64,000 nucleotides of DNA, taken from contig CAWKKS010000001.1 of NCBI GenBank assembly GCA_963850385.1, positions 1,209,551 through 1,273,550 on the forward strand, in the 5' to 3' direction. Position numbers and translations under genes: made by a program. Positions 1,044 through 52,704 of this stretch are shown piece by piece. The notes below the pieces were generated by a model that saw only the letters and a list, made by a program, of their open reading frames with translations, made no database searches and was not told the origin of the DNA. Within the stretch, counting starts at the first letter, position 1; every line of letters begins with the position of its first letter. The DNA is from Candidatus Dormiibacterota bacterium. GTDB lineage: Bacteria > Chloroflexota > Dormibacteria > Aeolococcales > Aeolococcaceae.

Positions 1044-1358
1044 ATGCTGACCGACTATGGGCGCGCGGTTCGCCGTCCGAGGCGCCGCCCGCTGCGACGC
1101 CGTCCACGCGTGGTTGTCGCCGGGGCGCTGACCGCTGCGGCCGGCCTCGTGATGCTCGGGGGCAATGTCTACGGTGGGTTCAACGTCGGCCAGGCGCAGC
1201 ACGTCAGGGTGCACGCGGGCGACACCCTCTGGACCATCGCCGCCGGCCACTACCAGGGCGGCGACATCCGTGACCACGTGGACCAGATCGTCAGCCTGAA
1301 CCACCTCGCGGGCGGCTCGATCACCCCCGGCGAGGACCTGCTCCTGCCGGCACCCTGA
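1044..1358 (+). CDS. LysM-domain membrane-anchored protein, putatively SOS-regulated
   Basis: Arg-rich N-terminus, one TM segment (VVVAGALTAAAGLVMLGG), then a LysM-like motif HAGDTLWTIAAGHY...IVSLNHLAGGSITPGEDLLLP. The start is moved to ATG 1044, downstream of the promoter and operators. Confidence 0.75.
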   Translation: MLTDYGRAVRRPRRRPLRRRPRVVVAGALTAAAGLVMLGGNVYGGFNVGQAQHVRVHAGDTLWTIAAGHYQGGDIRDHVDQIVSLNHLAGGSITPGEDLLLPAP

Positions 1359-3729: not shown

Positions 3730-4428
3730 TTGAAGATCCCCCCCGACGAGCCTGTCCTGATCGACCACGCTGAGTTCGAGCGGCGGATGGCGCCCTTCCG
3801 CATGCGCGACGGTGTCCTGCCGGTGGTGACCCGCTGTGGCGAGCCGGGCTGCGAGGCCGAGCCGGTTGACGCGTGCGGATACGTCGACAGCCGCGGCACC
3901 GCCTGCCGGACTCATTGGTGCGCGGCGCACGGACCCGAGGTGGGCGGCCAGCGCTACTGCCGCCGCCACGCCGGCACCATGGTCGCCCTCGGCAGCAAGG
4001 CCAACAACCCGCGGGCGCTGCCTGACGTGGGTCACCGCGGCGCGTCGCTGGTTCGGTGGGTGTATCGCGACCTCGACCCGGCGCTGACCACGCTGCTCGA
4101 GGCGGAGAGCCGCAGCAACGAGCACCTTCTCCGCGACACGGAGGTCGCCGTCGGCCGTGCTGACGATGGCAGCCGGTGCTGGGAGATGAGCTGGAAGCTG
4201 GCCTCCCCGTCGGGCATTCGCATGCGCATCACCCTGATGGTCGAGGAGGAGGACGACTCGATCGTGCTCGTCCGCCTCAACGGCGAGGTTCTCGCCAGCG
4301 GGGTCCCGCCGTGGATCGAGGCGCGCCGGCTCGGCCAGCAGGTGACCGAGGACGAGGACCGCGAGCAGCGGCGCAGCTTCTACGCCTTTCTCGAGCAGTA
4401 CCTCACCGAGGCGATCCGGCAGGCATAG
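3730..4428 (+). CDS. hypothetical Cys/His-rich protein, divergent from lexA
   Basis: 232-aa ORF with good GC3 bias. The N-terminal cluster is CGEPGCEAEPVDACGYVDSRGTACRTHWCAAHGPEVGGQRYCRRH and the C-terminus is acidic. No family recognised. TTG start without a clear SD. Confidence 0.55.
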   Translation: MKIPPDEPVLIDHAEFERRMAPFRMRDGVLPVVTRCGEPGCEAEPVDACGYVDSRGTACRTHWCAAHGPEVGGQRYCRRHAGTMVALGSKANNPRALPDVGHRGASLVRWVYRDLDPALTTLLEAESRSNEHLLRDTEVAVGRADDGSRCWEMSWKLASPSGIRMRITLMVEEEDDSIVLVRLNGEVLASGVPPWIEARRLGQQVTEDEDREQRRSFYAFLEQYLTEAIRQA

Positions 4429-50290: not shown

Positions 50291-50901
50291 CCCGCCGCCA
50301 CCATGTCGAGGCGTCGCAGCGCGGCGGCCACCAGGGCGGCGACGTCCAGGGGCGCGGCCCCGTCGGTGAGCGCAGCCTTGACAGCGTCACGGGCCGCGTT
50401 CTCGCGGAAGCCCATGGTTGCCAGCCCGTCGACCGCCGCGCGGATCGCCTGTTCCGCCGCCGCCTCCACTGGCGTTGCCCGGTCGCCGGGGAGCGCCAGG
50501 CCGTCCAACTTGTCGCGCAACTCGAGCACCACGCGCTCGGCCGTCTTGGCGCCGATCCCGGGCACGGTGGAGACCATCGCGGCGTCGCCACTGCGCAGGG
50601 CCCGCACCATGGTGGCGAGGTCGGCGCGTCCGAGGATGCCGAGCGCCGCCTTGGGGCCGATGCGCTCGACCGCGATGAGCAGCCGGAAGAGGCGCAGCTC
50701 CTCGCGGCTGGTGAAACCGTACAGGCGGATGGCGTCAGCGCTGACGGAGGTGTGCACGTGGAGGGTTACCTGGGCAGGGCTGTCATGCAGGGCGACGGCG
50801 GTGCGCAGATGGCACTGCACCGCGTACCCGACACCGTTGACGTCCACGGTGACAACGTCCTCGTCGACCCACAGGACCGTGCCGCGGAGCAGCGCGATCA
50901 C
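50287..50901 (-). CDS. ruvA: Holliday junction DNA-binding protein RuvA
   Basis: VIALLRGTV..VDVNGVGY.., and HhH motifs (VPGIGAKTAERVVLEL). GTG 50901 overlaps the ruvC stop (GTGA). Confidence 0.9.
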   Translation of the reverse strand: MIALLRGTVLWVDEDVVTVDVNGVGYAVQCHLRTAVALHDSPAQVTLHVHTSVSADAIRLYGFTSREELRLFRLLIAVERIGPKAALGILGRADLATMVRALRSGDAAMVSTVPGIGAKTAERVVLELRDKLDGLALPGDRATPVEAAAEQAIRAAVDGLATMGFRENAARDAVKAALTDGAAPLDVAALVAAALRRLDMVAAG

Positions 50902-52229
50902 CGCGTCGCCGCACCGAGGCGGTGGCGTGCAGCCGCGACGGCGGTGTCGAGCGCAGAGACCCGTGCCGGCTGTGCCTGGCGGCGCACCCGCACGGTCAGG
51001 GCGGCGCGATGGTGATGACAGACGGCGACGGCGCACGCGTCGGCGACGTCATCGGGCCCCTCGATCCGCTCCACCGCGAGCAGTTGGCGCGTCATCCTCT
51101 GCACCTGTGGCTTGCGGGCCGCCCCGTAGCCGGCGACCGCCTCCTTGACCTCGTTGGGCGTGTACTCGAAGACCGGGACGCCCGCAGCCGCCAGCGCGCA
51201 CAGAAGGACGCCGCGGGCCTCGCTGACCCGCATTGCCGTGGTGCGGTTGGTCGAGAAGAACAGCCGCTCCACGGCGGCGAAGGCCGGCCGGTACTCGCTG
51301 ACCACGGCGGTGATCAACCGCGACAGCGCGTAGAGGCGCTGCGGGTCGGCGGCGTCCGCGGTGGTGCTCAGGCAGCTGCTGTGCACGAGGGTGAGCGACC
51401 CCGGCCCACCGTCCACGACCGCGACGCCGGTTCGTCCCAGTCCCGGATCGACGCCCAGGACGCGCACCCTCAGCCGACCGAACTCGAGGACGTCGTCAGG
51501 GATCTCGGCGTTGGCGTAGACCTGTTGCACGTCGTCGTCCTCCTCGAGGGCGTCGAGCAGACGCAGCACCGCGGCCGCCTGCTTCGCATCGAGCGCCACC
51601 GAGGTGCTCGGGTTCATGGTCACCTCGCCGGAGTCGATGGCCAGGCCTGCGTGCTCGATGGCGGCGCGCGCGGCCTCGAAGTGGACCGGGTCGACGGTCA
51701 CGATGACCGCGTCGTCATCGACGCTGACGTCGCCGTCGTGACCGACGTCGACGAGCTCCAGGAGGCGCAGGGCCAGCTCCTCGGGGTCGTCGGCGCCGGC
51801 CACGACGCGCAGGACGCCCTGCTGGGTGAACATCCAGCCCACGCTGTTGGTCTCGCCCAACGACCCGCCGGAGCGGGTGAACAGGTTGCGAACCGCCGCC
51901 ACCGTCCGATTGCGGTTGTCGGTGAGCACGTCGACCATCACCGCCACCCCGTGGGGACCATAGCCCTCGTAGCGGATCTCCTCGAGCTGGCTGCCGTCCT
52001 TGCCGCCCGCGCCGCGCTGCACGGCCCGCTCGATGTTGTCGGCGGGCATGTTGACCTCGCGCGCCTTCTGCATGGCCAGCCGAAGGCGGAAGTTCGCGGC
52101 GGGGTCGGGTCCGCCCTCGCGGGCCGCGACCGACAGCTCACGGGCCACCTTGGTGAAGACCTGTCCACGCTTGGCGTCGACGATCGCCTTCTTGTGCTTG
52201 ATCCCCGCCCACTTGCTGTGACCGGACAT
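50898..52229 (-). CDS. yebC-ruvC: single ORF fusing YebC/PmpR-family protein (aa 1-254) to crossover junction endonuclease RuvC (aa 255-443)
   Basis: MSGHSKWAGIKHKKAIVDAKRG...DVQQVYANAEIPDDVLEFGRLR runs in frame, with no stop, into VRVLGVDPGLGRTGVAVV...ERLFF...DACAVAVCH. The internal GTG is at 51467. GGAGGA precedes ATG 52229. Confidence 0.85.
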   Translation of the reverse strand: MSGHSKWAGIKHKKAIVDAKRGQVFTKVARELSVAAREGGPDPAANFRLRLAMQKAREVNMPADNIERAVQRGAGGKDGSQLEEIRYEGYGPHGVAVMVDVLTDNRNRTVAAVRNLFTRSGGSLGETNSVGWMFTQQGVLRVVAGADDPEELALRLLELVDVGHDGDVSVDDDAVIVTVDPVHFEAARAAIEHAGLAIDSGEVTMNPSTSVALDAKQAAAVLRLLDALEEDDDVQQVYANAEIPDDVLEFGRLRVRVLGVDPGLGRTGVAVVDGGPGSLTLVHSSCLSTTADAADPQRLYALSRLITAVVSEYRPAFAAVERLFFSTNRTTAMRVSEARGVLLCALAAAGVPVFEYTPNEVKEAVAGYGAARKPQVQRMTRQLLAVERIEGPDDVADACAVAVCHHHRAALTVRVRRQAQPARVSALDTAVAAARHRLGAATR

Positions 52230-52243
52230 GGGTCCTCCGTTGT

Positions 52244-52257
52244 CGAACAGGCGTTTG
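52244..52257 (-). promoter_or_regulatory. LexA-type operator at the yebC-ruvCAB promoter
   Basis: CGAACAGGCGTTTG on the plus strand, 15 nt upstream of the yebC ATG and 2 nt downstream of the -10 element. Confidence 0.65.
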
Positions 52258-52259
52258 CC

Positions 52260-52288
52260 ATTGTATTCGCGCCGCCGGCTTCAGTCTA
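52260..52288 (-). promoter_or_regulatory. yebC-ruvCAB promoter TAGACT-17 nt-TACAAT
   Basis: The minus strand reads TAGACT (52288-52283), a 17-nt spacer, then TACAAT (52265-52260). Confidence 0.5.
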
Positions 52289-52337
52289 TGAGGTGGTGGT
52301 CCTGGCTCAGCGGGCGGTGACGGATCGACTGCGCATC

Positions 52338-52365
52338 TTGACTACTCCGGCAGGAGGTCTATCCT
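52338..52365 (+). promoter_or_regulatory. candidate plus-strand promoter TTGACT-16 nt-TATCCT
   Basis: TTGACT at 52338-52343 and TATCCT at 52360-52365. It is divergent from the yebC promoter. Confidence 0.4.
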
Positions 52366-52371
52366 GAGCAG

Positions 52372-52704
52372 CAAGGAACCGACTGCATACGGAGGAGAAC
52401 TTCACGATGCGTACGGTCTTCCAGCGCCTCCGGCACACTCGAGCCGAGAGGTAGGGCCCGAACCACTCGGGCGTTCGCCACGGGCCCGTTTCCCTGCGCC
52501 ACCGTCGAACCCGGGCACAAGACCCGGCGGCTCCGGTGATTGGTTGGAAGAGTGCAGGCGTGGGATCCCGGTGAGCGGCCTGGTTCGGGCTGGCCAGCCG
52601 GCACCCGCGAGGGTGTCCACCTCATAGCCCGGTCTATCCACCGGGCCGCCGACTGAGTTCGGCACTTCAGGGGGCCGGCGTCATCGCCGGTCCCCTTCTT
52701 TGTG
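52372..52704 (+). ncRNA. candidate orphan transcript (unclassified sRNA or small-peptide mRNA), about 330 nt
   Basis: Bounded by the promoter above and a strong intrinsic terminator. No long ORF in any frame. G+C is visibly below that of the flanking genes. It contains GGAGGAG, 9 nt, then ATG and a 15-codon ORF (52407-52454). Confidence 0.3.

What the first reader, a model, noticed from the sequence alone, without database searches (positions are those of the whole stretch)
52300..52704. Orphan plus-strand transcription unit hidden in the 437-nt mpg/yebC spacer
The spacer is unusually long for this compact region. It has no credible ORF over 20 codons in any frame, and its G+C is visibly lower than its neighbours.

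On the plus strand it contains:
- TTGACT, 16 nt, TATCCT (52338-52365);
- GGAGGAG, 9 nt, then ATG, opening a 15-codon ORF (MRTVFQRLRHTRAER, 52407-52454);
- a possible SD-sequestering pairing, CGGAGG (52390-52395) with CCUCCG (52427-52432);
- about 200 nt of GC-rich hairpins;
- a textbook terminator (52670-52704) that overlaps the last codons of convergent mpg.

In addition, an 11-nt perfect inverted repeat (CTATGAGGTGG at 52286-52296, CCACCTCATAG at 52617-52627) brackets most of the region. My rough estimate is about 0.02 such matches expected by chance at uniform base composition, and more in GC-rich DNA.

I could not match it to RNase P, tmRNA, SRP RNA, 6S RNA or a cobalamin riboswitch. It may be an unclassified sRNA or a small-peptide gene.
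Basis: seen in the sequence. Interest (0 to 1): 0.6.

Follow-up and report, generated by a model that had tools for sequence, protein, structure and literature searches.

The report
Tiny peptide gene inside structured RNA
The long gap between yebC and mpg holds a self-contained gene, conserved in the uncultured soil phylum Dormibacterota, for a folded RNA of about 335 bases that also carries a 15-codon reading frame under protein-level selection; it matches no known RNA family and its role is unknown.

Summary
On the plus strand at 52338-52704 there is a sigma-70-type promoter, a Shine-Dalgarno site, a 15-codon ORF, GC-rich hairpins and an intrinsic terminator.

- **Distribution.** The unit is single-copy. 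A model of its 5' part hit 85 of 106 genomes of the window's family (Ca. Dormibacterota) and 1 of 44 in a sister family. A peptide-based pattern found 42 further copies in soil metagenomes, all genuine.
- **Coding signal.** Across at least 15 genera the peptide stays M-R-T-V-[W/F/Y]-[Q/E]-x-[L/F/Y]-R-[H/R]-[G/T]-R-A-E-x. Arg is written with five codons, the stop is TAG, TGA or TAA at the same place, and variation sits at third codon positions.
- **RNA structure.** The SD, start and first codons lie in a covarying hairpin. A GC helix abuts the stop codon. Three more hairpins and the terminator show compensatory changes.
- **Known families.** Rfam gives nothing. RNase P, tmRNA and SRP RNA lie elsewhere in the genome.

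The most likely reading is a new dual-function (coding) small RNA whose translation is gated by its 5' hairpin. Function is unknown and no transcript data could be obtained.

The parts
52338..52365 (+). Sigma-70-type promoter: -35 TTGACT (52338-52343), 16-nt spacer, -10 TATCCT (52360-52365). The predicted transcription start is near 52372.
   Evidence: Promoter scan (0.0 expected in shuffles). In 18 same-genus sequences the -35 and -10 are invariant or nearly so while the spacer between them varies. TTGACx-16/17-TAnnnT at a fixed distance is found in 44 of 49 loci from at least 15 genera.
52375..52422 (+). 5' hairpin (H1). It encloses the Shine-Dalgarno GGAGG (52391-52395, paired with CUUC at 52400-52403), the ATG, and codons 2-5.
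   Evidence: Minimum-free-energy folds. The unpaired probability of the SD is 0.02-0.17 in this genus and has a median of 0.20 over 49 loci. On the model-fitted alignment 85% of cells are paired against 26-48% with slid partners, and 16 of 25 pairs show changes on both sides.
52407..52454 (+). 15-codon ORF plus TAG: MRTVFQRLRHTRAER. Family consensus: M-R-T-V-[W/F/Y]-[Q/E]-x-[L/F/Y]-R-[H/R]-[G/T]-R-A-E-x.
   Evidence: Kept in 49 of 49 loci found with the covariance model and 42 of 42 metagenome loci. Summed entropy at codon positions 1/2/3 is 7.2/6.6/12.2. Synonymous to non-synonymous codon differences are 3033:3456 in frame, against 857:5581 and 846:5852 out of frame. Stops are TAG 23, TGA 20, TAA 6. 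Starts are ATG 43, GTG 5, TTG 1.
52453..52593 (+). Middle domain. The stop-adjacent strand GGGCCCGAACC (52453-52464) pairs either locally (GCCCGA...UCGGGC, to about 52472) or at long range with GGUUCGGGCU (52583-52592), closing a variable rod. The rod contains the conserved GCGCCACCG...CGGUGAUUGGUUGGAAGAGUGC segment. The whole domain is absent in short-form genera.
   Evidence: Fold. The long-range helix is 88% paired in 19 sequences, and one pair occurs as GU, AU and GC. GGCCCGG directly follows the stop codon in nearly all loci. Two size classes exist, 220-260 nt and 307-352 nt.
52588..52617 (+). Two hairpins: GGCUGGCCAGCC (52588-52599) and H3 GGCACC...GGUGUC (52600-52617).
   Evidence: H3 is 98% paired, with 5 of 6 pairs changed on both sides across 47 loci. 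The first small hairpin is weaker at 84%.
52627..52663 (+). Adjacent hairpins H4 (GCCCGGU...ACCGGGC, 52627-52646) and H5 (GCCGA...UCGGC, 52648-52663).
   Evidence: H4 is 96% paired with 6 of 7 pairs changed on both sides. H5 is 98% paired with 3 of 5 pairs changed on both sides.
52669..52704 (+). Intrinsic terminator: 12-bp stem (52669-52696) followed by the T-rich tail TCTTTGTG. It overlaps the last 12 codons and the stop codon of mpg on the minus strand.
   Evidence: Terminator scan. A hairpin plus T-rich tail is found in 49 of 49 loci. All 12 stem pairs show changes on both sides across genera. The Mpg Pfam domain ends at residue 185 of 203, so the overlapping tail lies outside the conserved domain.

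Best explanation
This is an independent, single-copy gene of Ca. Dormibacterota for a dual-function (coding) small RNA.

Proposed mechanism:
1. A housekeeping-type promoter drives a transcript of about 335 nt that ends at an intrinsic terminator.
2. Near its 5' end the RNA carries a 15-codon ORF. Its basic peptide (MRTV-aromatic-..R..RAE) is itself under selection, so it is a product or an actor, not a by-product.
3. Translation is gated: the SD, start codon and first five codons are locked in a hairpin that must open first.
4. A GC-rich helix begins immediately after the stop codon and closes the downstream domain. A terminating ribosome must therefore melt it, which would couple translation to the fold of the 3' part.
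5. The 3' part (H3, H4, H5 and the terminator) is a conserved folded module. It stabilises the RNA and probably binds a partner.

Shown here: the conserved promoter, ORF and terminator; the coding signature; and covariation in the helices. Inferred: transcription, translation, gating, ribosome-driven refolding, and any trans activity.

The confidence given (0.5) is for this dual-function reading. That the unit is a real, conserved gene I hold at about 0.9.
For: Conservation and copy number:
- One copy in the window's own genome.
- 17 of 18 same-genus genomes match at 70-77% identity.
- The 5'-domain covariance model hits 85 of 106 genomes of the family, in 17 of 28 genera sampled across the order, once per genome in all but two, plus 1 of 44 in a sister family.
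- 42 of 42 metagenome pattern hits are genuine.

Independent unit:
- The promoter is kept in 44 of 49 loci and the terminator in 49 of 49.
- The unit persists with different neighbours (G006, G019, genus g15).

Coding:
- The amino-acid sequence is kept while codons change (Arg as CGT, CGA, CGG, AGA or AGG).
- All three stop codons are used at one position.
- Third-position entropy is about twice that of positions 1 and 2.
- The in-frame synonymous share is about 47%, against about 13% out of frame.

Structure:
- Plus-strand z = -4.3, minus-strand z = -1.7.
- 3' helices: 92.7% paired, 29 of 34 pairs with double changes, slid controls 32-51%.
- 5' hairpin: 85% paired, against 26-48% in slid controls.
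- Stop-adjacent helix.

No known family applies: Rfam is negative, and RNase P, tmRNA and SRP RNA lie elsewhere in the genome.

Precedent for a 15-aa protein encoded on a small RNA: Spot 42/SpfP (PMC8916003).
Against: - There is no transcript, ribosome or peptide evidence.
- The loops of H4 and H5 vary within the genus. This argues against loop-mediated base-pairing with targets.
- No Hfq or CsrA homologue was found by tblastn in this genome, which is 85% complete.
- The middle domain is dispensable in several genera.
- The covariation counts come from alignments fitted to the model's structure, which leans towards that structure.
- In two genomes the stop codon is lost and the peptide gains 5 residues.
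Confidence: 0.5

Rival explanations
1. Plain microprotein mRNA. The only product is the 15-aa peptide, and the hairpins merely control its translation, protect the short mRNA from nucleases and terminate transcription. The RNA has no activity of its own.
For: The coding signature is the strongest single signal. Hairpin loops are variable and the middle domain can be lost. No Hfq or CsrA was found.
Against: Stem sequences and pairing of three extra hairpins (H3, H4, H5) are kept across at least 15 genera with compensatory changes. That is more than a terminator or a stabiliser usually needs. The non-coding part is five times longer than the ORF.
Confidence: 0.25
2. Cis-acting regulatory nascent peptide (arrest or leader type). 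The ribosome pauses at the end of the ORF and keeps the stop-adjacent helix open. This switches the downstream fold and, for example, terminator read-through into the convergent mpg-pheT genes.
For: - The whole peptide would fit in the exit tunnel.
- It has an invariant R-A-E near the C-terminus and an aromatic residue 10 positions before the last residue. From my memory of SecM this is a resemblance, a lead and not a test.
- A helix abuts the stop codon in nearly all loci.
- Rare Arg codons are used: CGT, CGA and AGG in the ORF, against 54% CGC genome-wide.
- mpg is convergent in 24 of 27 genome loci and 30 of 36 metagenome loci.
Against: - No same-strand downstream gene is conserved.
- The terminator has no evident competing antiterminator.
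- The overlap with the mpg ORF ranges from -345 to +79 nt, so the antisense relation is not conserved.
- The unit survives without mpg in genus g15.
- The last residue is variable, and there is no Pro-Pro as in RAPP-type arrest peptides (PMC10951233, PMC7897499).
Confidence: 0.12
3. Type I toxin-like mRNA. A small toxic peptide is held translationally silent by 5' structure and is controlled by an antisense RNA.
For: The translation initiation region is sequestered. The RNA is highly structured and probably stable. The 5' and 3' ends can pair in the minimum-free-energy fold.
Against: The peptide is hydrophilic and basic, has no membrane-spanning stretch and is shorter than known type I toxins. 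No promoter-like site was found on the minus strand inside the unit. It is single-copy and vertically conserved with stable synteny, unlike typical toxin-antitoxin loci.
Confidence: 0.04
4. Pure non-coding RNA in which the 15-codon frame is fortuitous, or alternatively minus-strand regulatory sequence (yebC 5' leader or mpg 3' UTR).
For: The ORF overlaps structured RNA, so some conservation could be structural. The yebC promoter and a LexA-like box lie in the same spacer.
Against: Third-position variation, five Arg codons, three stop codons at one site and a fixed length are not expected from structure alone. The yebC promoter TAGACT-17-TACAAT lies at 52288-52260, leaving only a short yebC leader. 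The unit persists where yebC is not the neighbour. The minus strand folds no better than shuffles.
Confidence: 0.05

Closest known systems
Spot 42 RNA / SpfP of Escherichia coli and other dual-function small RNAs (SgrS/SgrT, SR1/SR1P, RNAIII/delta-haemolysin, AzuCR/AzuC); PMC8916003, PMC12310071, PMC12612679
   Same: It is a free-standing small transcript with its own promoter and intrinsic terminator, and it carries a very short translated frame (SpfP is also 15 aa) next to structured RNA.
   Different: There is no sequence or structure similarity and no Rfam hit. The RNA is three times longer than Spot 42. The SD and start are locked in a hairpin. No Hfq was found in this genome. No target or base-pairing seed has been identified.
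rnTrpL / peTrpL of Sinorhizobium meliloti (attenuator-derived small RNA whose 14-aa leader peptide acts in trans); PMC7298713, PMC7968998
   Same: It is a terminated short RNA carrying a peptide of 14-15 aa. In both cases a ribosome at the end of the small ORF is expected to affect the folding of the RNA.
   Different: It is not upstream of any biosynthetic operon (the downstream gene is convergent). There are no tandem regulatory codons: the single aromatic position varies as W, F or Y, which fits a structural residue rather than a codon sensor.
Ribosome arrest peptides (SecM; RAPP-type ApdA/ApdP/ApcA); PMC7897499, PMC10951233, PMC10987492
   Same: It is a short conserved peptide with an invariant Arg-Ala near its C-terminus and an upstream aromatic residue, and an RNA helix lies just downstream of the ORF end.
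   Different: It has no Pro-Pro or Gly-Pro at the stall site (R-A-E-x-stop). It is not upstream of a Sec or YidC gene, and there is no downstream SD to unmask.
Type I toxin mRNAs (hok, tisB, aapA1)
   Same: The translation initiation region is sequestered and the RNA is long and stable relative to a tiny ORF.
   Different: The peptide is hydrophilic and only 15 aa long. No antisense partner was seen. The locus is vertically inherited, single-copy and syntenic.

Membership tests
Any Rfam 15 family (including 6S, tmRNA, RNase P, SRP, riboswitches, T-box, Spot_42) | Match to the family's covariance model at or near its gathering score | tested here: not met
   There is no gathering-score hit in the spacer. 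The best E-value-mode hits score 15-20 bits against cut-offs of 50-80. Ten distant homologous loci give nothing in the unit. RNase P, tmRNA and SRP RNA are found elsewhere in the genome. 6S gives only a weak 20.8-bit hit elsewhere.
Dual-function (coding) small RNA, a functional class | Discrete small transcript with its own promoter and terminator | tested here: inconclusive
   The sequence signals are present and conserved.
Dual-function (coding) small RNA, a functional class | The small ORF is translated or selected as protein | tested here: met
   The evolutionary signature of coding is present: synonymous codon turnover, three stop codons at one position, a kept SD with 6-13 nt spacing, and a fixed length. 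Translation itself could not be tested.
Dual-function (coding) small RNA, a functional class | The RNA has a regulatory activity of its own (base-pairing or protein binding) | not testable with these tools
   Only conserved structure is shown. No conserved single-stranded seed was identified.
Ribosome-dependent transcription attenuator or leader peptide (trpL, pheL, rnTrpL type) | Located upstream of, and co-oriented with, the regulated operon, with regulatory codons in the leader | tested here: not met
   The downstream gene is convergent mpg in most loci, and unrelated genes in genus g15. There is no run of any one codon, and the aromatic position varies as W, F or Y.
RAPP-type or SecM-type arrest peptides | C-terminal RAPP, RGPP or RAGP stall motif, encoded upstream of a Sec or YidC component | tested here: not met
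   The C-terminus is R-A-E-x-stop with a variable last residue. The neighbours are yebC and mpg. The motif definitions are taken from PMC10951233 and PMC7897499.
Type I toxin-antitoxin | Hydrophobic membrane peptide, with an overlapping antisense RNA gene | tested here: not met
   The peptide has 4-5 Arg, His and Glu and no hydrophobic stretch. The only minus-strand promoter-like site in the spacer is that of yebC.

The most novel reading that the evidence does not exclude
The peptide never leaves the ribosome as a free effector. Instead it is a new kind of nascent-chain sensor on a free-standing RNA: a pause at R-A-E-x-stop holds the stop-adjacent helix open and switches the 3' domain between two folds. 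The RNA would then act as a translation-gated riboregulator that reports on ribosome or release-factor status. This would be an arrest-peptide device with no downstream gene.
Probability: 0.1. Interest if true: 0.85.

Novelty: new member of a known kind. Interest (0 to 1): 0.55.

Why it matters
Dormibacterota (AD3) are abundant in poor soils and have no cultured member that I know of, so almost nothing is known about how they regulate genes. This unit is one of the best-conserved non-annotated genes in that lineage: it is single-copy and widespread in one family.

It combines a peptide of only 15 residues under clear protein-level selection with a covariation-supported RNA fold. It therefore adds a phylogenetically remote case to the very short list of dual-function RNAs with peptides this small. 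Because the peptide and the RNA can be synthesised, it also gives a concrete target for heterologous tests.

Gene callers will never annotate it, so genome annotations of the phylum miss it.

Tried and rejected
- **Rfam scans:** the whole window at gathering scores, the spacer in E-value mode and ten distant loci. Only chance-level hits were returned.
- **Housekeeping RNAs:** RNase P, tmRNA and SRP RNA are elsewhere in the genome, so the unit is none of these. 6S gives only a weak hit elsewhere.
- **Repeat or mobile element:** rejected. The unit is single-copy, and the 11-nt inverted repeat is marginal (5% of simulations) and not conserved.
rejected as a conserved feature.
- **Antisense control of mpg:** weakened. 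The overlap with the mpg ORF varies from none to 79 nt, and the unit exists without mpg.
- **yebC leader:** rejected. yebC has its own promoter close to its start codon, and the unit occurs without yebC.
- **Hfq or CsrA partner:** no homologue by tblastn in this 85%-complete genome.
- **Pairing of the sORF with the GGUUGGAAG bulge** predicted by RNAalifold: not kept outside the genus on inspection.
- **Resemblance of the peptide to the N-terminus of ribosomal protein L34:** considered from memory only and not pursued, because the peptide is too short for any test here.
- **Protein-family and structure tools:** could not take a 15-residue query.

Full report
**Setting**

The window comes from a 2.49-Mb, three-contig assembly that is 85.6% complete. 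Contig titles of its relatives name them Candidatus Dormibacterota MAGs.

The finding lies in the 437-nt gap between two minus-strand genes. One is yebC, with TACO1/YebC domains; in this assembly it forms a single ORF with RuvC. The other is mpg, with a Pur_DNA_glyco domain covering residues 6-185 of 203. pheT follows mpg.

**Observation**

- The consensus scan finds TTGACT-16-TATCCT at 52338-52365, against 0.0 expected in shuffles. It also finds a 12-bp terminator stem at 52669-52696 followed by a T-rich tail.
- The same scan shows a minus-strand promoter, TAGACT-17-TACAAT, at 52288-52260. This sits just upstream of yebC, so the rest of the spacer is not needed as a yebC leader.
- G+C drops to about 0.60 in the 5' half of the spacer.
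- The plus strand of 52372-52704 folds at -172.8 kcal/mol (z = -4.3, 0 of 100 shuffles as good). The minus strand reaches only z = -1.7.

**Conservation and distribution**

- The spacer occurs once in its own genome.
- BLAST finds it at 70-77% identity in 17 of 18 genomes of the same genus. Only its 5' 90 nt are found in a second genus.
- A covariance model of the 5' domain (R1) hits 85 of 106 genomes of the family, in 17 of 28 genera sampled across the order. It hits once per genome in all but two and always full length. It also hits 1 of 44 genomes of a sister family.
- A strict DNA pattern found 17 genome contigs. All are labelled Dormibacterota except one 4.4-kb contig binned as Gemmatimonadaceae.
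- A pattern written from the peptide, with third codon positions free, found 42 metagenome contigs. Every one has ACGGAGG, a start codon and the post-stop GGCCCGG, so there were no false hits.

**An independent unit**

- In the same-genus alignment the -35 and -10 hexamers are fixed while the 16 nt between them and the sequence upstream vary freely.
- A TTGACx-16/17-TAnnnT promoter at a constant distance is found in 44 of 49 loci from at least 15 genera.
- A hairpin with a T-rich tail closes the unit in 49 of 49 loci. Unit lengths fall into two classes, 220-260 nt and 307-352 nt.
- The usual neighbours are divergent yebC and convergent mpg: mpg in 24 of 27 genome loci and 30 of 36 metagenome loci.
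- The unit keeps its form where yebC is replaced (G006, G019, G041, G044, G150, G032). It also keeps its form in genus g15, where neither neighbour is present.
- The mpg ORF runs into the terminator in this window by 38 nt. Across genomes the relation ranges from a 345-nt gap to a 79-nt overlap, and the conserved Mpg domain always ends before the terminator. An antisense link to mpg is therefore not the conserved feature.

**The mini-ORF is under protein-level selection**

- All 49 loci found with the covariance model carry the frame. The consensus is M-R-T-V-[W/F/Y]-[Q/E]-x-[L/F/Y]-R-[H/R]-[G/T]-R-A-E-x.
- The frame has 14-16 codons. The exceptions are two genomes in which the stop is mutated and five residues are added.
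- Invariant Arg positions are written with CGT, CGA, CGG, AGA and AGG. Ala13 is written GCC or GCG. The stop is TAG (23), TGA (20) or TAA (6) at the same place. The start is ATG (43), GTG (5) or TTG (1), 6-13 nt after GGAGG.
- On the 43 distinct sequences found with the covariance model, summed entropy at codon positions 1, 2 and 3 is 7.2, 6.6 and 12.2.
- Differing codons are synonymous in 3033 of 6489 comparisons in frame. Out of frame the figures are 857 of 6438 and 846 of 6698. These figures do not use the metagenome set, which was selected by peptide pattern.
- The ORF prefers Arg codons that are rare in this genome. CGT, CGA and AGG dominate in the ORF, while CGC makes up 54% of Arg codons in 623 long ORFs. 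This may reflect the overlapping RNA structure or slow decoding. I cannot tell which.

**RNA structure**

1. *5' hairpin.* It encloses the SD, the start codon and codons 2-5. In this genus the SD pairs with CUUC four nucleotides downstream and its unpaired probability is 0.02-0.17. In most other genera CAGACGG pairs with the Thr-Val-Trp codons CCGUCUG. On the model-fitted alignment 85% of cells pair, against 26-48% with slid partners, and 16 of 25 pairs change on both sides.
2. *Stop-adjacent helix.* GGCCCGG follows the stop codon directly in nearly all loci. It can form a local hairpin. In this genus it can instead form a 10-bp long-range helix with GGUUCGGGCU at 52583-52592, which closes the variable middle domain. 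That helix is 88% paired, and one pair occurs as GU, AU and GC. A ribosome at the stop codon would have to open this strand. That step is inference.
3. *3' module.* I built a model of H3, H4, H5 and the terminator from the same-genus alignment with a structure I wrote by hand. It aligns every locus on the correct strand. On 47 loci 92.7% of cells pair, against 32-51% with slid partners. 29 of 34 pairs change on both sides, and none of 500 shuffles reach the observed values.

These alignments are fitted to the model's structure, so the counts lean towards it. The size of the gap to the slid controls, and the visible compensatory changes in raw sequences, make the helices credible.

**What it is not**

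- No Rfam family matches, whether in the window, in the spacer at E up to 10, or in ten distant loci.
- RNase P RNA, tmRNA and SRP RNA are found elsewhere in the genome. 6S gives only a weak 20.8-bit candidate elsewhere.
- It is not repeated DNA.
- The 11-nt inverted repeat occurs in 5% of simulations, is not conserved, and has one arm outside the transcript.
- No Hfq or CsrA homologue was detected by tblastn.

**Mechanism**

I commit to a dual-function RNA.
- The peptide is selected for its own sequence.
- Its synthesis is gated by the 5' hairpin.
- The 3' module is a conserved fold that at least stabilises the transcript and probably binds a partner.
- Termination at the ORF end is structurally coupled to the downstream domain.

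The main rival is a plain microprotein mRNA with protective structure. A cis-acting arrest-type peptide is a minority reading. The invariant R-A-E and the aromatic residue ten positions before the C-terminus recall SecM, from memory only. The defining Pro-Pro or Gly-Pro of RAPP/SecM motifs and the Sec/YidC context are absent (PMC10951233, PMC7897499). A type I toxin is unlikely because the peptide is hydrophilic.

**Novelty and earlier notes**

No paper in the held library connects Dormibacterota with such an RNA.

Earlier reports of this scan described the same family on other genomes. One described a roughly 335-nt RNA between yebC and mpg with a 15-16-codon frame (e1-2846205). Another described a roughly 240-nt short form (e1-2778658). 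My results agree with them and add the following:
- the family-wide counts;
- the off-frame controls for coding;
- the covariation of the 5' arm with codons 3-5;
- the stop-adjacent helix;
- the variable overlap with mpg;
- the relocation in genus g15;
- the rare-codon bias;
- the negative Hfq and CsrA search.

**Limits**

- The genome search closed before a class-wide search with the broader model R2 could run. The outer boundary of the distribution is therefore unknown.
- Related genomes are kin, so the counts overstate independence.

Noticed in passing
window 50898-52229 (-), junction near 51467-51480: yebC and ruvC read as one 443-aa ORF containing both Pfam domains. Relatives end YebC with ...VLExVG-stop at 252 aa. 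Here the frame differs by one base, so VG-TGA falls out of frame. The closest relative (L002/G003) shares ...LEFGRL but then runs on out of frame with RuvC. This may be an assembly indel or a shared real change.
   Followed up: partly
window 52244-52257: CGAACAGGCGTTTG, a LexA/Cheo-box-like palindrome between the yebC promoter and its SD, is invariant in all 17 same-genus relatives that have yebC next to the spacer.
   Followed up: partly
L032 (DATBBP010000058.1, 4456 bp), match at 3774-3802: A 4.4-kb contig binned as Gemmatimonadaceae carries the exact Dormibacterota 5' motif. It is probably a mis-binned contig.
   Followed up: no
own genome C1:1305114-1305299 (-), outside the window (L038): This is the only 6S RNA candidate in the genome. 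It is a full-length but weak match (20.8 bits, cut-off 46.4). The 6S RNA of this lineage may be too divergent for Rfam.
   Followed up: no
L085 (G020) and L089 (G022), end of the small ORF: In two genomes the stop codon is changed (TAC and CAG), and the peptide is extended by five residues into the stop-adjacent helix. This may be natural variation or MAG error.
   Followed up: no
L090 (G032, sister family), 1228-1349 (-): The one sister-family copy has an extra hairpin of about 20 nt inserted in the 5' leader and a short 3' part, but it keeps the peptide (MRTVWSYLRHTRAES) and convergent mpg. The model probably misses other copies in that family.
   Followed up: partly
window 52407-52454: In this genome the five Arg residues of the peptide are written with five different codons: CGT, CGC, CGG, CGA and AGG.
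   Followed up: no
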